The notes under the pieces: model-generated | Database searches by the model: none | The model's input: the letters and a program-made list of their open reading frames with translations, nothing else | Told to the model about the DNA's origin: nothing | Origin: an uncultured Actinomycetes bacterium | GTDB lineage: Bacteria; Actinomycetota; UBA4738; HRBIN12 | Assembly: GCA_963704885.1 (NCBI GenBank) | Contig: CAVPIB010000001.1 | Coordinates: 672,001 to 736,000 of the forward strand | Direction of reading: 5' to 3' | DNA length: 64,000 nt | Shown here: positions 3,895 to 7,722 of the stretch, in pieces | Layout: each line of letters begins with the position of its first letter | Numbering within the stretch: position 1 is the stretch's first letter | Program-made: the position numbers and the translations under genes

Positions 3895-3903
3895 CATCGC
3901 TTG

Positions 3904-5142
3904 ATGGCCCCACCTCGCGTCGCGGTGCTCTCGGTGCACACGTCGCCGCTTGACCAGCCCGGCTCGGGCGACTCCGGCGGGATGAACGTGTACATCCGCG
4001 CGGTGGCCGAACGTCTCACGGAGCACGAGATCGAGGTCGACCTGTTCACGCGCCGCCGCGGCGGAGACGTCGAGGACATCATCGACATCGCGCCGGGCGT
4101 TCGGGTGCTCAACGTGAAGGCCGGACCCTACGCCCCGATACCCAAGACCGATCTCCCTCGCTATCTGCCGGAGTTCCTTGGGGGCGTGTTGCGCCGCGCC
4201 CGTCAAGACGGGCGCGGCTACGACATCCTGCACAGCCATTACTGGTTGTCGGGCTGGGTCGGCAGCTCCGCCAAGGAGATCTGGGGCGTCCCGCTGGTGG
4301 CGTCGTTCCATACCCTCGGCAAGGTGAAGAACTACTCCTTAGCCGGTGGGGAGCAACCTGAGCCGCCCGCCCGTCTGGCCGGCGAGGAACGGGTGATCGC
4401 GGGCGCGGATCGGATCTTGGCGCCGACGCCGGCGGAGGCTGCGCAGCTTGTCGGTCTGTATCGGGCCGATCCCGGTCACATCCGGATCGTCCCGCCGGGC
4501 GTCGACCACACGATCTTCTTCCCGCGCAAGCGCGCCGACGCGCGTGAGCGGCTCCACCTCTCTGGCCTGAGGCTGGCCGTCTACGTGGGGCGACTCCAGC
4601 CGCACAAGGGACCCGACATCGCCGTGCGCACGCTGGCCGAGGCGGTGGCTCGCGATCCCGAGCTCACGCGCGACCTGATGCTCGCGATCGTCGGAGGTCC
4701 GAGCGGTACCGGCCAAGGGGTCGAGGTGGCGCGGCTCATGGAGCTCGCCTCCGCGCTCGGCGTCAGCCACCGGGTGATCCTCTTCCCGCCGTTGCCGCAG
4801 GCGCGCCTGGCCGATGTCTACGCGGCGGCGGACGTGGTGCTGGTCCCGTCCCGATCGGAGTCGTTCGGTCTGGTGGCGCTCGAGTCGCAGGCGTGCGGCA
4901 CGCCGGTCGTGGCGGCATCCGTCGGTGGTCTGCGGTTCGTGGTGTCTGACGGGCGCACCGGATTCCTGGTTGAGGGTCACGACCCGTCCGATCACGCCGA
5001 TCGCATGCTGCGGATCCTGGCCGACCCGGTCCTGGCCGCCGACCTGGGCGTCGCGGCCGCCCGCGAGGCGCTGAGGTTCACCTGGGACGCGACGGCGTCC
5101 CAGCTGGCCGGGATCTACCGCGAGCTGACGGCGGCATCGTGA
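3904..5142 (+). CDS. mshA: D-inositol-3-phosphate glycosyltransferase (mycothiol biosynthesis)
   Basis: VHTSPLDQPGSGDSGGMNVY, HSHYWLSG, GRLQPHKGPD and ESFGLVALE. Confidence 0.92.
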   Translation: MAPPRVAVLSVHTSPLDQPGSGDSGGMNVYIRAVAERLTEHEIEVDLFTRRRGGDVEDIIDIAPGVRVLNVKAGPYAPIPKTDLPRYLPEFLGGVLRRARQDGRGYDILHSHYWLSGWVGSSAKEIWGVPLVASFHTLGKVKNYSLAGGEQPEPPARLAGEERVIAGADRILAPTPAEAAQLVGLYRADPGHIRIVPPGVDHTIFFPRKRADARERLHLSGLRLAVYVGRLQPHKGPDIAVRTLAEAVARDPELTRDLMLAIVGGPSGTGQGVEVARLMELASALGVSHRVILFPPLPQARLADVYAAADVVLVPSRSESFGLVALESQACGTPVVAASVGGLRFVVSDGRTGFLVEGHDPSDHADRMLRILADPVLAADLGVAAAREALRFTWDATASQLAGIYRELTAAS

Positions 5143-5681
5143 TAGCCGGCGAACGGGTCACGCTTCGCCCGGTCGCCGAACAGGACTACCCGTTGATACA
5201 GGCGTGGCAGAACGACCCCGAGGTCTGGTGGCTGATGGACTACGAGGGTCCGTTCTCCCTGGCGGACATAGCCGAGAGCGAGCGGCGCGCTCGCGAGGAG
5301 GGGCATCCCTACACCGTCGAGTTCGAGGGACGTCCCATCGGGCGGATCGGCTTGAACAACATCCGTCGCCGTGACCGGATCTGCGCCCTGTACGTGTTCC
5401 TCGGCGATCGCTCGGCGTGGGGCGACGGTCTGGGGACCGACGCCATCGACGCCTTGCTGGCCCATGCGTTCGACCGGTTCGATCTTCATCAGGTCGAGCT
5501 CTGGTCGTTGGCCGACAACGAACGGGCGATCCGCGCCTACCGGCATTGCGGGTTCCACGAGACGGCGCGGCTCGCGGATCGCTCTTGGAAGGACGGTCGA
5601 TGGGTGGATCACGTCGTCATGACGGTGACGCCCGAAGTGTTCCGTAAGACCCGCATGGCCCGTGACCAGCGGGAACGCTGA
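5139..5681 (+). CDS. RimJ/RimL-type GNAT N-acetyltransferase
   Basis: GERVTLRP, WGDGLGTDA and NERAIRAYRHCGF. Confidence 0.88.
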   Translation: MIAGERVTLRPVAEQDYPLIQAWQNDPEVWWLMDYEGPFSLADIAESERRAREEGHPYTVEFEGRPIGRIGLNNIRRRDRICALYVFLGDRSAWGDGLGTDAIDALLAHAFDRFDLHQVELWSLADNERAIRAYRHCGFHETARLADRSWKDGRWVDHVVMTVTPEVFRKTRMARDQRER

Positions 5682-5768
5682 CATCGACCTCACGCTCCGC
5701 CGATTTGTCACTCTTTGTCTCAGGCCTTCTACCTGCGGATATATACCCTGACCTGCGGAAACATGAAG

Positions 5769-5797
5769 TTGACCGCGCCTCGACTCGCCGCTAGATT
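5769..5797 (+). promoter_or_regulatory. Housekeeping sigma-type promoter for the structured RNA candidate
   Basis: TTGACC (5769-5774), 17-nt spacer, TAGATT (5792-5797); the predicted start near 5804-5805 coincides with the 5' strand of the closing stem. Confidence 0.75.
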
Positions 5798-5804
5798 TCG
5801 CTTC

Positions 5805-6101
5805 GCTCCAAGCAGTCGAAGTGCCGACGCGAAGGAACCGGACGGAGCACCGGAGAAGCCGCAAGGTGGATCAGGTGCTCCAGGCTCGGGTAGGCCGCAA
5901 GGCCGAAGCGAGCCGGCTGGGAAGGTCGCAAGGCCGGAACGGCGCCTCAGTCAGGCGAACCGCAAGGGGAGCAGGGCCGGGGCACCGCCGCCGGGCAAGC
6001 CGCAAGGCGAGCCCACGGCGGCGGGCCGTCGGGAACGCCGCAAGGCGGGCCCGCGGGGTCCGGGAGGCCGCGCGATGGCGCGGAGGTTGCTTGGAGCACC
6101 A
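5805..6101 (+). ncRNA. Candidate structured ncRNA with six GCAA-tetraloop hairpins
   Basis: CGCAAGG at 5860, 5896, 5927, 5961, 6001 and 6039; 5805-5817 pairs with 6085-6097; followed by ACCA; flanked by a promoter and a terminator-like hairpin. Confidence 0.75.
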
Positions 6102-6173
6102 GAGCCCGAGGGGCTGACGGTGGCTGGGAGCTTCGGTTCCCGGCGAGCCGGAGGTCCCTCGGGTTCTCTATTT
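6101..6173 (+). terminator. Long terminator-like hairpin with a UUCG loop
   Basis: AGAGCCCGAGGG (6101-6112) pairs with CCCTCGGGTTCT (6156-6167); inner GCTGGGAGC-TTCG-GTTCCCGGC; weak CTATTT tail. Confidence 0.55.
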
Positions 6174-6204
6174 CGTGACCCTCATCGGCTACTGTCCCGA
6201 TGCC

Positions 6205-6849
6205 ATGGGAACCGCAAGCACGCGACCGACCGACGCCTCCGCTCGTCGCGATCAGACCGTCGAGGTGGCGATGCGCCATTTCGCTGAGCGCGGGTACCGC
6301 GGCGCACGCGTCGAGGACATCGCCACAGAGGTCGGGGTCGCCAAGGGCACGGTCTTCCTGGACTTCACCTCGAAGGAAGGACTGTTCCTGGCGGCTTACC
6401 AACGGGCGGTCTCGATGCTCCCGGCGTGGCTGGATGCACCCTCGGAGATCGTGGAGCAGGGGTTCTGGGCCATCGTGGACTGGTGGCTGGAGCGCACGGA
6501 GGAGATGGGAGAACAGGACTGGGTGGCCAACCGGGTCTCCATGATGGGCCGCAACGACACGGGGTTGGGGCTCCGGCGGCCGATCGACAGGTTCATGCGG
6601 AGCGAGGATCCCTACGGCACGCTCGAGTTCGTGGAGTTCGGCGTGCGGCGCGGGGAGGTTCGCGACGATGTCGACGCCGAGATGCTCGCCTCCATGCTCG
6701 ATTGGCTGGCCGTGAGGTTCCAGGACGCGCTGGTCTCGGTGGACCTCGATCCGGGCCTGATCCACCGCAAGCCGGAACGCCGTTCGATGCGCATCAAGGA
6801 GTTCGTAGAGGTGCTGCGTGGCGGCATCGATGTCCAGCCCGAGGACTGA
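6205..6849 (+). CDS. TetR/AcrR-family transcriptional regulator
   Basis: N-terminal HTH FAERGYRGARVEDIATEVGVAKGTVFLDFTSKEGLF. Confidence 0.9.
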   Translation: MGTASTRPTDASARRDQTVEVAMRHFAERGYRGARVEDIATEVGVAKGTVFLDFTSKEGLFLAAYQRAVSMLPAWLDAPSEIVEQGFWAIVDWWLERTEEMGEQDWVANRVSMMGRNDTGLGLRRPIDRFMRSEDPYGTLEFVEFGVRRGEVRDDVDAEMLASMLDWLAVRFQDALVSVDLDPGLIHRKPERRSMRIKEFVEVLRGGIDVQPED

Positions 6850-6891
6850 TACTCCGATGCGGTACGGTGTGCGGCTGGTGAGGAGCGGACG

Positions 6892-7722
6892 ATGACGGAT
6901 CGCAGGGTGGCTTTCCTGGGCGGCGGAAAGATGGGCGAGGCGCTCATCGCCGGCCTGATCCGGTCTGGCGGGCGGACGGTTGACGAGATCACGGTCACGT
7001 GCCGGCGCGAGGAGCGCGCTCGTGAGTTGGCCGGCAAGTACGGAGTCTCGGCCACGCTCGACAACGCCGAGGCTGCGCGCTGGGCCGACATGTTGGTGCT
7101 GATGGCCAAGCCGCAAGACATGGAGGTTCTGCTCGAGCAGATCCGGGGCGAGGTGACGCCCGACGACCTGATCGTGAGCTTCGCCGCAGGGCTACGAACC
7201 TCGTTCGCCGAGAAGCACCTCCCTGACGCGGTGCCCGTGGTGCGGGTGATGTCGAACGTGCCGGTGATGGTCGACGAAGCTATGTCGGTGATCGCGGCCG
7301 GATCACACGCCGAGGACGAGCACATGGTGCTGGTCGAGGAGCTGCTCGCCTACGTCGGCCGAGTGCTGCGGCTAAAGGAAGAGCACATGGACGCGGTGAC
7401 TGCCACGAGCGGCAGCGGTCCCGCCTACTTCTTCTTGCTGGCCGAGGCCATGATCGAGGCCTGTATCCTCCTGGGGCTGTCGCGCGACGTGGCGACCGAG
7501 CTGATCATCCAGACCATGCTCGGCTCCGCGAAGATGCTTCGCGACACAGGCAAGCACCCCGTGGAGCTCCGCGAGATGGTGACGTCGCCCGGTGGAACCA
7601 CCATCGCGGCGATCCGCCACCTGGAGGAGGCCGGCGTGCGAGCCGCGTTCCTGAACGCGATCGACGCCGCCTGCAAGCGAGGCCAGGAGCTGTCGCAGGG
7701 CGGCGATGAGGATGAGGAGTAG
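6892..7722 (+). CDS. proC: Pyrroline-5-carboxylate reductase
   Basis: FLGGGKMGEA, TATSGSGPAY and VTSPGGTTIAA. Confidence 0.95.
   Translation: MTDRRVAFLGGGKMGEALIAGLIRSGGRTVDEITVTCRREERARELAGKYGVSATLDNAEAARWADMLVLMAKPQDMEVLLEQIRGEVTPDDLIVSFAAGLRTSFAEKHLPDAVPVVRVMSNVPVMVDEAMSVIAAGSHAEDEHMVLVEELLAYVGRVLRLKEEHMDAVTATSGSGPAYFFLLAEAMIEACILLGLSRDVATELIIQTMLGSAKMLRDTGKHPVELREMVTSPGGTTIAAIRHLEEAGVRAAFLNAIDAACKRGQELSQGGDEDEE

What the first reader, a model, noticed from the sequence alone, without database searches (positions are those of the whole stretch)
5769..6173. Candidate stand-alone ~300-nt structured RNA built from six GCAA-tetraloop modules
Seen in sequence: the gap between the GNAT and TetR genes holds CGCAAGG six times (5860, 5896, 5927, 5961, 6001, 6039; spacings 36, 31, 34, 40, 38 nt). 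Each sits in a short hairpin above a purine-rich internal loop on a longer stem, e.g. GGAGCACC..GCC-GCAA-GGT..GGTGCTCC, GGCTCG..GGCC-GCAA-GGCC..CGAGCC and GGGC-AA-GCC-GCAA-GGC-GA-GCCC. The outer stems differ in sequence but keep pairing, which suggests selection on structure rather than recent duplication. Long-range pairings close the fold: GTGCC 5821 with GGCAC 5981, and a 13-bp terminal helix 5805-5817 with 6085-6097. A TTGACC-N17-TAGATT promoter starts at the 5' end and a UUCG-capped hairpin follows the 3' end. Inference: an independently transcribed ncRNA, perhaps a multivalent protein sponge (CsrB-like logic, but without GGA loops), an RNA polymerase-binding RNA analogous to Ms1/6S, or a GNRA-mediated multimerising RNA. 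I do not recognise it as a named family.
Basis: partly seen in the sequence, partly recalled or inferred. Interest (0 to 1): 0.88.

Follow-up and report, generated by a model that had tools for sequence, protein, structure and literature searches.

The report
New structured RNA gene in uncultured Actinomycetota
The gap between the acetyltransferase and TetR genes holds a real, separately transcribed, highly folded non-coding RNA that belongs to a large, previously uncatalogued RNA family of uncultured actinobacteria whose function is still unknown.

Summary
Six CGCAAGG motifs sit at the stated places. The + strand folds far better than shuffles (z -9.9). It forms a 13-bp closing helix, six GCAA-capped hairpins and a separate 67-nt UUCG hairpin, behind a TTGACC-N17-TAGATT promoter. 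One claimed pairing (5821/5981) fails.

The RNA (about 5805-6169) is single-copy and matches no Rfam 15 family. Its 3' hairpin is found in 254 of 294 genomes of its class. Covariation supports the fold in the window's form (29 sequences) and in a second form (93 sequences). Contigs from RNA libraries of three studies lie on it.

The six-hairpin array is not the conserved core. Most of the class carries a different, almost invariant ~165-nt middle domain ("type A") between the same promoter, closing helix and 3' hairpin. The window's "type B" array occurs in some genera of one family. A model built from type A finds diverged relatives in other families of the phylum.

Function is unknown. My best guess is a trans-acting, protein-binding housekeeping RNA, with RNA polymerase the leading candidate (about 0.25-0.3). 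Palindromic 9-nt loops in type A also suggest RNA-RNA self-association.

The parts
5705..5718 (+). Conserved upstream motif TTGTCACTCTTTGT, about 100 nt before the start
   Evidence: Present upstream of the RNA in loci of several families. It occurs only twice in the 3.0-Mb genome.
5730..5758 (+). Two direct repeats (TACCTGCGG, TGACCTGCGG) flanking an AT-rich near-palindrome; possible regulator site
   Evidence: Conserved in position and sequence in related loci. The double-repeat pattern occurs 3 times in the genome. Function inferred only.
5769..5797 (+). Sigma-70-type promoter, TTGACC - 17 nt - TAGATT
   Evidence: Only promoter-like site in 5600-6300. A TTGAC-type -35 and a TANNNT -10 are kept in homologues across the class.
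5805..6169 (+). The RNA itself (type B form), about 365 nt
   Evidence: Contigs of four RNA-library runs from three studies lie between 5805 and 6170. One begins at 5805 and one ends at 6170 followed by 22 A. 5805 is 7 nt after the -10 and is the first base of P1.
5805..5817 (+). P1, 5' strand of the closing helix
   Evidence: Pairs with 6085-6097 in the minimum-energy fold. 100% paired in 29 type B sequences. In 93 type A sequences, 7 of 13 pairs change on both sides.
5821..5843 (+). 5' strands of the stalk helices (P2 and following) with the purine-rich AAGGAA stretch
   Evidence: Pair with 6058-6081 in the fold. Helix 2 has 4 pairs changed on both sides. The stretch resembles the AGGGAACCGA element conserved in type A.
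5844..5881 (+). Hairpin 1, GCAA loop 5861-5864
   Evidence: The apical stem is 100% paired with 2 of 3 pairs changed on both sides.
5883..5914 (+). Hairpin 2, GCAA loop 5897-5900, with a 4x4 purine internal loop
   Evidence: The apical stem is 90.5% paired with 3 of 4 pairs changed on both sides.
5916..5943 (+). Hairpin 3, GCAA loop 5928-5931, with a GGAA/GGAA internal loop
   Evidence: The apical stem is 96.6% paired. Its 5' half resembles the H2 loop region of type A.
5944..5983 (+). Hairpin 4, GCAA loop 5962-5965
   Evidence: The outer stems are poorly aligned between genera (48.6-70.1% paired).
5985..6024 (+). Hairpin 5, GCAA loop 6002-6005
   Evidence: The outer helix has 5 of 6 pairs changed on both sides.
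6026..6056 (+). Hairpin 6, GCAA loop 6040-6043
   Evidence: The apical stem is 90.5% paired.
6058..6097 (+). 3' strands of the stalk helices and of P1 (6085-6097)
6101..6167 (+). Conserved 3' hairpin with two conserved internal loops and a UUCG cap; probable terminator
   Evidence: The most conserved part of the RNA. BLAST with 6078-6172 matches 254 of 294 genomes of the class. 98.8% paired in type B. In type A, 16 of its 26 main pairs change on both sides. A contig ends at 6170.
5139..5681 (+). Upstream neighbour: GNAT acetyltransferase (Acetyltransf_3)
   Evidence: Pfam E 5.5e-22. A relative lies upstream on the same strand in 33 of 85 type A flanks, 18 of 31 type B flanks and 4 of 6 flanks from other families of the phylum.
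6190..6849 (+). Downstream neighbour: TetR-family gene with a possible -10 of its own (TACTGT 6190-6195), 9 nt before the in-frame ATG at 6205
   Evidence: Pfam TetR_N E 5.2e-14. A relative lies downstream in 40 of 74 type A and 30 of 30 type B flanks. The -10 and leaderless start are read from the sequence and are inferred.

Best explanation
Window 5805 to about 6169 (+) is a stand-alone gene for a highly structured non-coding RNA. It is transcribed from its own conserved sigma-70-type promoter and ends at a conserved 67-nt hairpin.

It belongs to an RNA family absent from Rfam 15. The family has a constant frame and an exchangeable middle domain. The frame is the promoter with its upstream elements, the 13-bp closing helix P1, a stalk carrying a purine-rich element, and the 3' hairpin with conserved internal loops. 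In most of the class the middle domain is a nearly invariant ~165-nt core ('type A'). In the window's genus and some other genera of its family it is an array of 5-11 GNRA-capped hairpins with purine-rich internal loops ('type B').

Shown here: the gene is real, its fold is under selection, it is single-copy, it is near-universal in its class, and it occurs in RNA libraries.

Inferred: it acts in trans as a housekeeping or regulatory RNA that binds an abundant conserved partner through the constant frame and the purine-rich loops. RNA polymerase is the leading candidate partner, by the same logic as 6S and Ms1. I put about 0.9 on the first part, about 0.5 on 'trans-acting protein binder', and about 0.25-0.3 on RNA polymerase specifically. 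The confidence of 0.5 given for this explanation is for the statement as a whole, up to and including 'trans-acting protein binder'.
For: - Fold: z -9.92 on the + strand against -2.81 on the - strand.
- Type B covariation, 29 sequences from 4 genera: 83.3% of cells paired against 31.4-45.2% when slid. 42 of 128 pairs change on both sides. 0 of 500 shuffles reach four of the five measures; on the fifth, further pair types, 302 of 500 do. The G and A of each GNRA loop and its closing C-G are invariant while the stems vary.
- Type A covariation, 93 sequences: 96.7% paired against 31.6-46.9% when slid. 47 of 82 pairs change on both sides. 0 of 500 shuffles reach any measure.
- Distribution: one copy in the window's own genome. 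The 3' hairpin is found in 254 of 294 genomes of the class, and in 99 of 109 high-quality ones. The type A model hits 22 of 151 genomes sampled across the phylum. That includes 7 of 10 in family f18 (98-105 bits on the five loci re-scored; 89.8 bits at the lowest) and 3 of 10 in f14 (27-37 bits).
- Promoter.
- RNA libraries: contigs of 4 runs from 3 studies lie on 5805-6170. Depths are up to several hundred in X18, and in X17 over the 3' hairpin. One contig ends at 6170 followed by A22.
- Not coding: no Pfam hit for the overlapping ORFs, and 1-, 2- and 4-nt indels within the genus.
- Other housekeeping RNAs lie elsewhere in the genome: SRP RNA, RNase P RNA and tmRNA.
- No 6S match over the cut-off in 0 of 41 relatives, including the window's own genome.
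- Likeness to Ms1 as described in PMC4191392 (passages read): about 300 nt, a conserved primary-sigma-type promoter, a terminator, a single-gene unit and high abundance, with an internal bubble and adjacent helices as the most conserved parts.
- In type A the purine-rich internal loop (AGUCAGGGAACCGA opposite AGGAAACCRAGAC) is kept even in other families of the phylum.
Against: - No binding partner was tested or can be tested here.
- The window's RNA is a multi-branched fold, not a rod with a central bubble. Its 3' stalk strand lacks the type A loop sequence.
- No 6S or any other Rfam model matches.
- The synteny typical of Ms1 (an HAD-IB hydrolase) is not at this locus. The neighbours are a GT4 glycosyltransferase, GNAT, TetR and proC (phrases in PMC9130861).
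- The 6S model also fails to ring in the Corynebacterium control, so its silence here says little.
- The near-invariant type A core is replaced wholesale in type B. That is hard to square with a single sequence-specific partner for the middle domain.
- The RNA-library evidence comes from assembled contigs. These cannot prove transcription, ends or strand (tool caveat).
Confidence: 0.5

Rival explanations
1. A self-assembling RNA. The family's main property would be RNA-RNA association. Type A would dimerise through a 9-nt loop with a self-complementary centre. Type B would associate through its many GNRA loops docking on helices or purine-rich internal loops of other copies. This could coexist with protein binding.
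For: - In 93 type A RNAs the H2 loop reads G-A-A-NNNN-A-A. The central four bases are palindromic in 75 of 93: GGCC 51, AGCU 18, GCGC 3, GAUC 2, GUAC 1.
- The other 18 (AGCC 11, GGCU 4, AGCG 3) are one change away from a palindrome.
- The middle two bases are self-complementary in 93 of 93, using GC, AU, CG and UA.
- GAUC appears again in family f18, and a GCGC-centred loop appears in f14.
- Bases 1 and 4, or 2 and 3, of a 4-nt stretch cannot pair within one loop.
- Type B hairpin 3 (GGGAAGGYC-GCAA-GGCC-GGAA) looks like the same loop closed in cis.
- From recall, not from any call: the 9-nt purine-flanked palindromic loop resembles the HIV-1 dimerisation loop.
Against: - The sequences are related, and only about four or five independent changes of the central pair are seen.
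- GC-centred loops could instead pair within the molecule, with the conserved GGCU in the next hairpin's loop. No such partner is visible for GAUC or GUAC.
- Four base pairs make a weak contact.
- The window's own RNA has no palindromic loop.
- No receptor motif for GNRA loops was identified.
Confidence: 0.2
2. A long cis-acting leader, riboswitch-like or protein-controlled, whose 3' hairpin is a conditional terminator for the TetR-proC genes that follow.
For: - The 3' hairpin ends only about 35 nt before the TetR start.
- TetR lies downstream in 30 of 30 type B and 40 of 74 type A flanks, and proC in 12 of 30 and 31 of 74.
- The type A core is almost invariant, as ligand-binding cores are.
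Against: - A -10-like hexamer (TACTGT here, TATACT in other loci) sits 9 nt before the TetR ATG in several loci. This suggests a separate, leaderless TetR transcript (inferred).
- I saw no alternative pairing that would compete with the 3' hairpin.
- The 3' hairpin is conserved in sequence in its internal loops, which is more than a terminator needs.
- Type B replaces the candidate ligand core entirely.
- About half of the type A flanks show no TetR within 1400 nt.
Confidence: 0.07
3. An RNA partner of the neighbouring GNAT acetyltransferase, for example a substrate mimic, a regulator or an antitoxin-like RNA with repeated modules.
For: - A GNAT (Acetyltransf_3) gene lies directly upstream on the same strand in the window, in 33 of 85 type A flanks, in 18 of 31 type B flanks, and in 4 of 6 loci from other families of the phylum.
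- Type B has six modules of about 35 nt.
Against: - The GNAT is missing from most type A flanks, where the GT4 gene precedes the RNA (69 of 85).
- There is no tandem sequence repeat, and type A has no repeated modules.
- The gene is single-copy, vertically conserved and has its own promoter, unlike known repeat-RNA antitoxins.
Confidence: 0.05
4. Not an RNA gene: a protein-coding stretch (ORF 5715-6287 or 5821-6117) or a repetitive or mobile DNA element.
For: Open frames of 190 and 98 codons overlap the region.
Against: - No Pfam match.
- 1-, 2- and 4-nt indels among species of the same genus.
- The middle is replaced by an unrelated sequence in most of the class while the frame is kept.
- Changes are compensatory for pairing.
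- The region is single-copy in the genome, and there is no tandem repeat.
Confidence: 0.01

Closest known systems
Ms1 RNA of mycobacteria and Streptomyces (RNA polymerase core binder)
   Same: It is actinobacterial and about 300 nt. It is a single-gene unit with a conserved primary-sigma-type promoter and a terminator, and it is abundant. Its conserved internal loop and flanking helices are its most conserved parts (PMC4191392 passages). Sequence diverges so fast that models find only close kin (PMC9130861 sections 22 and 23).
   Different: No sequence or model match. Ms1 has different neighbours, an HAD-IB hydrolase and an oxidoreductase, where this RNA has GT4, GNAT, TetR and proC. This RNA is multi-branched rather than a rod with a bubble. 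Binding was not tested.
6S RNA (RF00013)
   Same: It is a near-universal, single-copy, abundant housekeeping RNA closed by a long terminal helix. No canonical 6S is detectable in this lineage.
   Different: No model match. This RNA is about twice as long, and the window's form has no open-promoter-like bubble.
Large 'ornate' bacterial RNAs of unknown function (OLE, ROOL, GOLLD, raiA). That some of them form RNA-only assemblies is recalled, not taken from any call.
   Same: They are long, elaborately folded and widespread in a lineage, they were first seen by comparative genomics, and they may self-associate.
   Different: No Rfam match to any of them. This RNA is smaller, has two alternative middle domains, and lies in a housekeeping gene neighbourhood rather than in phage or mobile contexts.
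CsrB/RsmZ-type protein sponges
   Same: They have many similar hairpin modules on one transcript.
   Different: The loops here are GNRA (GCAA), not GGA. Type A has no repeated modules.
HIV-1 dimerisation initiation site loop (recalled, not from any call)
   Same: It is a nine-base hairpin loop with a self-complementary centre flanked by purines, like H2 of type A.
   Different: The palindrome here is four bases, not six. It is a bacterial RNA, and dimerisation is not shown.

Membership tests
Any Rfam 15 family | Match to the family's covariance model at or near its gathering score | tested here: not met
   0 matches at gathering on the 64-kb window. At E<=10 on 5500-6400 there were three chance-level hits (15-19 bits against cut-offs of 38-80). 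0 matches at E<=1 in 8 homologous loci. 0 matches at E<=0.1 in 5 loci of other families.
6S RNA | RF00013 model match | tested here: not met
   No match in the window's own genome. 0 of 41 relatives are over the cut-off. The model also misses the Corynebacterium control.
6S RNA | Rod-like fold with a large central bubble between a closing stem and a terminal stem | tested here: not met
   The window's RNA is a closing helix plus a six-hairpin junction plus a separate 3' hairpin. Type A does have a conserved purine-rich internal loop in its stalk, which I rate as inconclusive.
6S RNA / Ms1 | Binds RNA polymerase holoenzyme or core | not testable with these tools
Ms1 | Flanked by an HAD-IB hydrolase ('inhibition of morphological differentiation') gene | tested here: not met
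   The neighbours are GT4, GNAT, TetR and proC. The synteny phrases come from PMC9130861 Tables 1-3.
Ms1 | About 300 nt, own conserved sigma-A-type promoter, intrinsic terminator, single-gene unit | tested here: met
   Lengths are about 270-300 nt for type A and 311-525 nt for type B.
CsrB-type sponge | Multiple GGA motifs presented in hairpin loops | tested here: not met
   All six loops are GCAA. The loops across 29 homologues are GNRA.
Repeat-RNA antitoxin (ToxI-like) | Tandem near-identical direct repeats next to a toxin gene | tested here: not met
   Tandem Repeats Finder gives 0 rows at score 30. The neighbouring genes are housekeeping-type.
Cis-regulatory leader / riboswitch | Alternative structures that couple a sensor to the expression platform of the downstream gene | tested here: inconclusive
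   I saw no competing pairing for the 3' hairpin. A candidate separate -10 lies before the TetR gene. The downstream gene is conserved in only part of the flanks.
Kissing-loop dimer RNAs | Self-complementary loop sequence that covaries so as to stay self-complementary | tested here: inconclusive
   For type A the centre is palindromic in 75 of 93, and the middle pair is self-complementary in 93 of 93. The pattern recurs in other families. The window's type B has no such loop.

The most novel reading that the evidence does not exclude
The family is a natural self-assembling RNA. Type A would form homodimers through a DIS-like palindromic kissing loop. In some genera this contact would have been internalised and multiplied into arrays of GNRA hairpins (type B) that link copies multivalently. 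That would give an RNA-only or RNA-scaffolded assembly that is a housekeeping component of a whole uncultured actinobacterial class.
Probability: 0.2. Interest if true: 0.85.

Novelty: new variant of a known kind. Interest (0 to 1): 0.72.

Why it matters
Large, strongly conserved bacterial RNAs of unknown function are rare, and each one so far has pointed to new biology. This one is near-universal and single-copy in a class of Actinomycetota known here only from metagenome-assembled genomes, and it reaches into other families of the phylum. It appears at high depth in RNA-library contigs from the environment.

It has an unusual evolutionary pattern: a constant frame with two unrelated, equally well-folded middle domains. 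If it binds RNA polymerase, it would extend the 6S/Ms1 principle to deep-branching actinobacteria. If it self-assembles, it would be a new natural RNA architecture. Both ideas can be tested in vitro without culturing the host.

The alignments and the covariance model made here would also allow the family to be annotated in metagenomes.

Tried and rejected
- RNA-library contigs: none of the four runs laid gave a contig on 5300-5804 or 6171-6700. The two contig ends at 5805 and 6170 both carry loose letters (a fold-back piece and A22), so they are hints only.
- Upstream motif: I searched the genome for the motif TTGTCACTCTT(TGT). It gave one other site, before a DUF4193 gene, with no Rfam family nearby. 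This told nothing about regulation.
- Type A junction: RNAalifold on my own alignments gave an unconvincing pairing for the junction, and a brute-force covariation scan was too noisy there. I therefore scored only the helices P1, P2, P3, H1, H2 and the 3' hairpin. The fold of the invariant stretches (CCCUGGGAAAGCCGUAAGGC and GCCCCAAAGCCCAACGAAAGG) is unresolved.
- Ms1 comparison: I could not find the Rfam accession of Ms1 in two papers, so I could not fetch Ms1 loci for a direct comparison. The Ms1 comparison rests on passages of PMC4191392 and PMC9130861. The supplementary tables of PMC9130861, which list 824 species, were closed, so I cannot say whether any relative of this class is listed there.
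- Literature: two searches found no description of this RNA. That is all the claim 'not in print' rests on, together with Rfam 15.
- Taxon names: the class and the families f11, f14, f18 and f52 could not be named. The records are titled only 'Actinomycetota bacterium' and similar.
- Chance matches: four of the exact 19-mer matches (L110, L130, L134, L154) lack the rest of the RNA and are chance. They were dropped.
- Rows dropped from A2: those four; L075, L120 and L170 (divergent or duplicated core); the second copies in L075 and L120; L065 and L085; and 13 truncated loci.
- Rows dropped from A1: L003 and L040 (unpublished), and L014, L020 and L059 (very different lengths).
- Unpublished genomes: the tallies include handles flagged unpublished (G008 and G037; the 19 listed; G029 and G431). 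The type B list includes L003 and L040. No row of alignments A1-A3 comes from a handle flagged unpublished.
Full report
**What is in the sequence**

The region between the GNAT gene (5139-5681) and the TetR gene (6175/6205-6849) was read directly. CGCAAGG occurs on the + strand at 5860, 5896, 5927, 5961, 6001 and 6039. The whole window has 28 copies, against 9.56 +/- 2.86 in shuffles.

Folded as RNA, 5790-6175 (+) gives -245.2 kcal/mol. 100 dinucleotide shuffles give -190.96 +/- 5.47 (z -9.92), and the minimum-energy structure takes 6.8% of the ensemble. The opposite strand gives z -2.81.

The fold has these parts:
- a 13-bp closing helix P1, 5805-5817 with 6085-6097;
- a stalk, 5821-5843 with 6058-6081;
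- six hairpins, each capped by GCAA and most with a purine-rich internal loop: 5844-5881, 5883-5914, 5916-5943, 5944-5983, 5985-6024 and 6026-6056;
- a separate 67-nt hairpin, 6101-6167, with a UUCG cap.

TTGACC-17-TAGATT (5769-5797) is the only promoter-like site in 5600-6300. A start 7 nt after it would be 5805, the first base of P1. Tandem Repeats Finder finds nothing, so the modules share shape and loop but not sequence.

It pairs in 53.8% of cells, against up to 69.0% in slid controls.

**It is not a known RNA and not a protein**

- Rfam 15 gives no match at gathering on the whole window.
- At E<=10 on the region there are only three chance-level hits.
- There is nothing in 8 homologous loci at E<=1, and nothing in 5 loci of other families at E<=0.1.
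- SRP RNA, RNase P RNA and tmRNA are found elsewhere in the same genome. 6S is not found, and it is over the cut-off in 0 of 41 relatives.
- The overlapping ORFs have no Pfam match.
- Species of the same genus differ by 1-, 2- and 4-nt indels inside them.

**Relatives, and the main surprise**

The 386-nt stretch is single-copy in its genome. Within the genus it is 84-87% identical over its full length. Further away, only the first ~30 nt and the last ~90 nt still match by BLAST. The 3' hairpin alone (6078-6172) matches 254 of 294 genomes of the class. That is 99 of 109 high-quality genomes and 67 of 78 genera. By family the counts are f1 202/222, f7 23/27, f8 19/27, f6 3/9, f2 3/3, f5 2/2, f3 1/2 and f4 0/1.

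I then read the loci. Most of the class carries a different ~165-nt middle domain between the same promoter, P1 and 3' hairpin. This domain is almost invariant ('type A'). The window's hairpin array ('type B') is seen in genera g1, g2, g6, g10, g11, g40, g42 and g44 of family f1. Type B lengths are 311-525 nt, with 5-11 C-GNRA-G loops.

An exact 19-mer from the type A core occurs in 113 stretches of the species-representative genome collection. Nearly all are titled as MAGs of Actinomycetota from soil or sediment. Four are chance hits. No cultured organism appeared.

A covariance model of type A (R1) hits 22 of 151 genomes drawn evenly from the phylum. Outside the class these include f11 (228 bits), f52 (218.6 bits, an unpublished handle), 7 of 10 genomes of f18 (89.8-105.3 bits) and 3 of 10 of f14 (27-37 bits). 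There was no hit in the other large families sampled. The alignments show the same P1, stalk loop, H2 and 3' hairpin.

Type A is therefore the older and wider form, and type B is a derived one.

**Selection on structure**

Type B: for 29 RNAs from four genera, I projected the window's minimum-energy structure on a MAFFT alignment (A1).
- 83.3% of 3673 cells are paired, against 31.4-45.2% when the partner is slid.
- 42 of 128 pairs change on both sides.
- 0 of 500 shuffles reach the observed value for four of the five measures.
- The stems directly under the tetraloops are 90-100% paired and have compensatory changes.
- The outer stems score lower because MAFFT misaligns them between genera.
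- In every one of the six loops the G and the A of GNRA and the closing C-G are invariant, while GCAA, GCGA, GAAA and GUAA alternate.

Type A: for 93 RNAs (A2), I scored a hand-built structure of P1, P2, P3, H1, H2 and the 3' hairpin.
- 96.7% of 7565 cells are paired, against 31.6-46.9% when slid.
- 47 of 82 pairs change on both sides.
- 0 of 500 shuffles reach any measure.
- P1, which never varies within type B, covaries here in 7 of 13 pairs.

The sequences are related, so these figures overstate independence. The slid controls do not depend on independence.

**Expression**

Runs that hold near-identical sequence include 8 RNA libraries. I laid Logan contigs of four of them, from three studies, on 5300-6700.
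- Their pieces lie between 5805 and 6170.
- Most pieces from X6, X7 and X18 are 99-100% alike; X7 and X18 also gave a few at 90-99%.
- Summed word depths reach several hundred in X18, and in X17 over the 3' hairpin. The deepest X17 contig comes from a type A relative.
- One X18 contig begins at 5805.
- One X17 contig ends at 6170 and continues with 22 A.

Contigs cannot prove transcription, strand or ends, and RNA libraries can hold DNA. I take this as consistent with a discrete, abundant RNA of about 365 nt, not as proof.

**Gene neighbourhood**

I searched up to 1400 nt on each side of the RNA with the window's four neighbouring proteins, on flanks at least 600 nt long.

| Neighbour | Type A flanks | Type B flanks |
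|---|---|---|
| GT4 glycosyltransferase, upstream | 69 of 85 | 31 of 31 |
| GNAT, upstream | 33 of 85 | 18 of 31 |
| TetR, downstream | 40 of 74 | 30 of 30 |
| proC, downstream | 31 of 74 | 12 of 30 |

GNAT also lies upstream in 4 of 6 loci of other families. This is not the HAD-IB hydrolase neighbourhood used to define Ms1 loci (PMC9130861, Tables 1-3 read).

A -10-like hexamer (TACTGT at 6190-6195 here, TATACT elsewhere) lies 9 nt before the TetR ATG in several loci. This suggests that TetR has its own leaderless transcript, which argues against the RNA being its leader.

**What it may do**

Nothing here measures function. Four observations guide the guess.
1. The gene behaves like a housekeeping RNA gene. 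It is single-copy and near-universal, has a strongly conserved promoter with conserved upstream elements, and has high depth in RNA libraries.
2. The lineage has no detectable 6S. Actinobacteria are known to use Ms1 instead, an RNA of similar size and gene structure. Ms1's most conserved parts are an internal bubble and the adjacent helices, and its sequence diverges beyond the reach of models (passages of PMC4191392; sections of PMC9130861).
3. In type A, the element conserved furthest across the phylum, apart from P1 and the 3' hairpin, is a purine-rich internal loop in the stalk (AGUCAGGGAACCGA opposite AGGAAACCRAGAC). Its short predicted pairs show almost no covariation. This fits a recognition site.
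4. The H2 hairpin of type A ends in a 9-nt loop, G-A-A-NNNN-A-A. Its centre is palindromic in 75 of 93 sequences (GGCC, AGCU, GCGC, GAUC, GUAC). Its middle two bases are self-complementary in all 93. The pattern recurs in f18 and f14. This kind of covariation points to pairing between two copies of the loop.

There are caveats on the fourth point. The independent changes are few. The GC-centred variants could also pair with a conserved GGCU in the next hairpin's loop. The window's own RNA has no such loop. Its hairpin 3 looks like the same sequence closed in cis and capped by GCAA.

I therefore rank the explanations as follows:
- a trans-acting protein-binding RNA first, with RNA polymerase the leading candidate (about 0.25-0.3 for that target);
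- RNA self-assembly second, which may coexist with the first (about 0.2);
- a cis leader of TetR-proC (about 0.07);
- a GNAT-linked role (about 0.05);
- coding or repeat DNA (about 0.01).

**Novelty and verdict**

It is one member of a large, structurally well-supported RNA family that Rfam 15 does not hold, and that two literature searches did not find.

The window's six-hairpin array is a lineage-specific ornament on a conserved frame. By kind it is an orphan structured bacterial RNA, possibly a functional analogue of Ms1 or 6S, so I rate it a new variant of a known kind rather than categorically new.

The tallies include genomes flagged unpublished. No row of the alignments used for covariation comes from a handle flagged unpublished.

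Noticed in passing
window 6190-6207: A -10-like hexamer (TACTGT) lies 9 nt before the in-frame ATG (6205) of the TetR gene, with no Shine-Dalgarno sequence. Other loci have TATACT at the same distance. This suggests a leaderless TetR mRNA that starts right after the RNA's terminator.
   Followed up: partly
window 5705-5718; G000:C4:254893: The motif TTGTCACTCTTTGT upstream of the RNA promoter occurs only once more in the 3-Mb genome. That site lies about 25 nt before a TTGACG...TACCTT promoter-like pair, upstream of a DUF4193 gene.
   Followed up: partly
G000:C9:8265-8654 and G000:C11:10815-11204: Two full-length RNase P RNA matches (204.9 and 193.3 bits) lie on two small contigs of the same assembly. 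This could be a duplicate, a second strain or contamination (the genome's contamination estimate is 4.54%).
   Followed up: no
L075:910-1068 and L120:439-597: Two MAG records carry the type A core 19-mer twice, 140 nt apart, within one RNA locus. The core domain has apparently been duplicated in tandem.
   Followed up: no
window, whole: Outside the RNA, CGCAAGG still occurs 22 times on both strands, against about 9.6 expected from dinucleotide shuffles. This may be codon usage or further GCAA-capped hairpins.
   Followed up: no
window 3901-7722 and homologous loci: The order GT4 glycosyltransferase (mshA-like) - GNAT - RNA - TetR - proC is kept across the class and partly beyond it.
   Followed up: yes
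G000:C1:768781 and G000:C1:793858 (outside the window): Two identical 88-nt strings on the - strand lie 25 kb apart. This indicates a duplicated segment in the contig.
   Followed up: no
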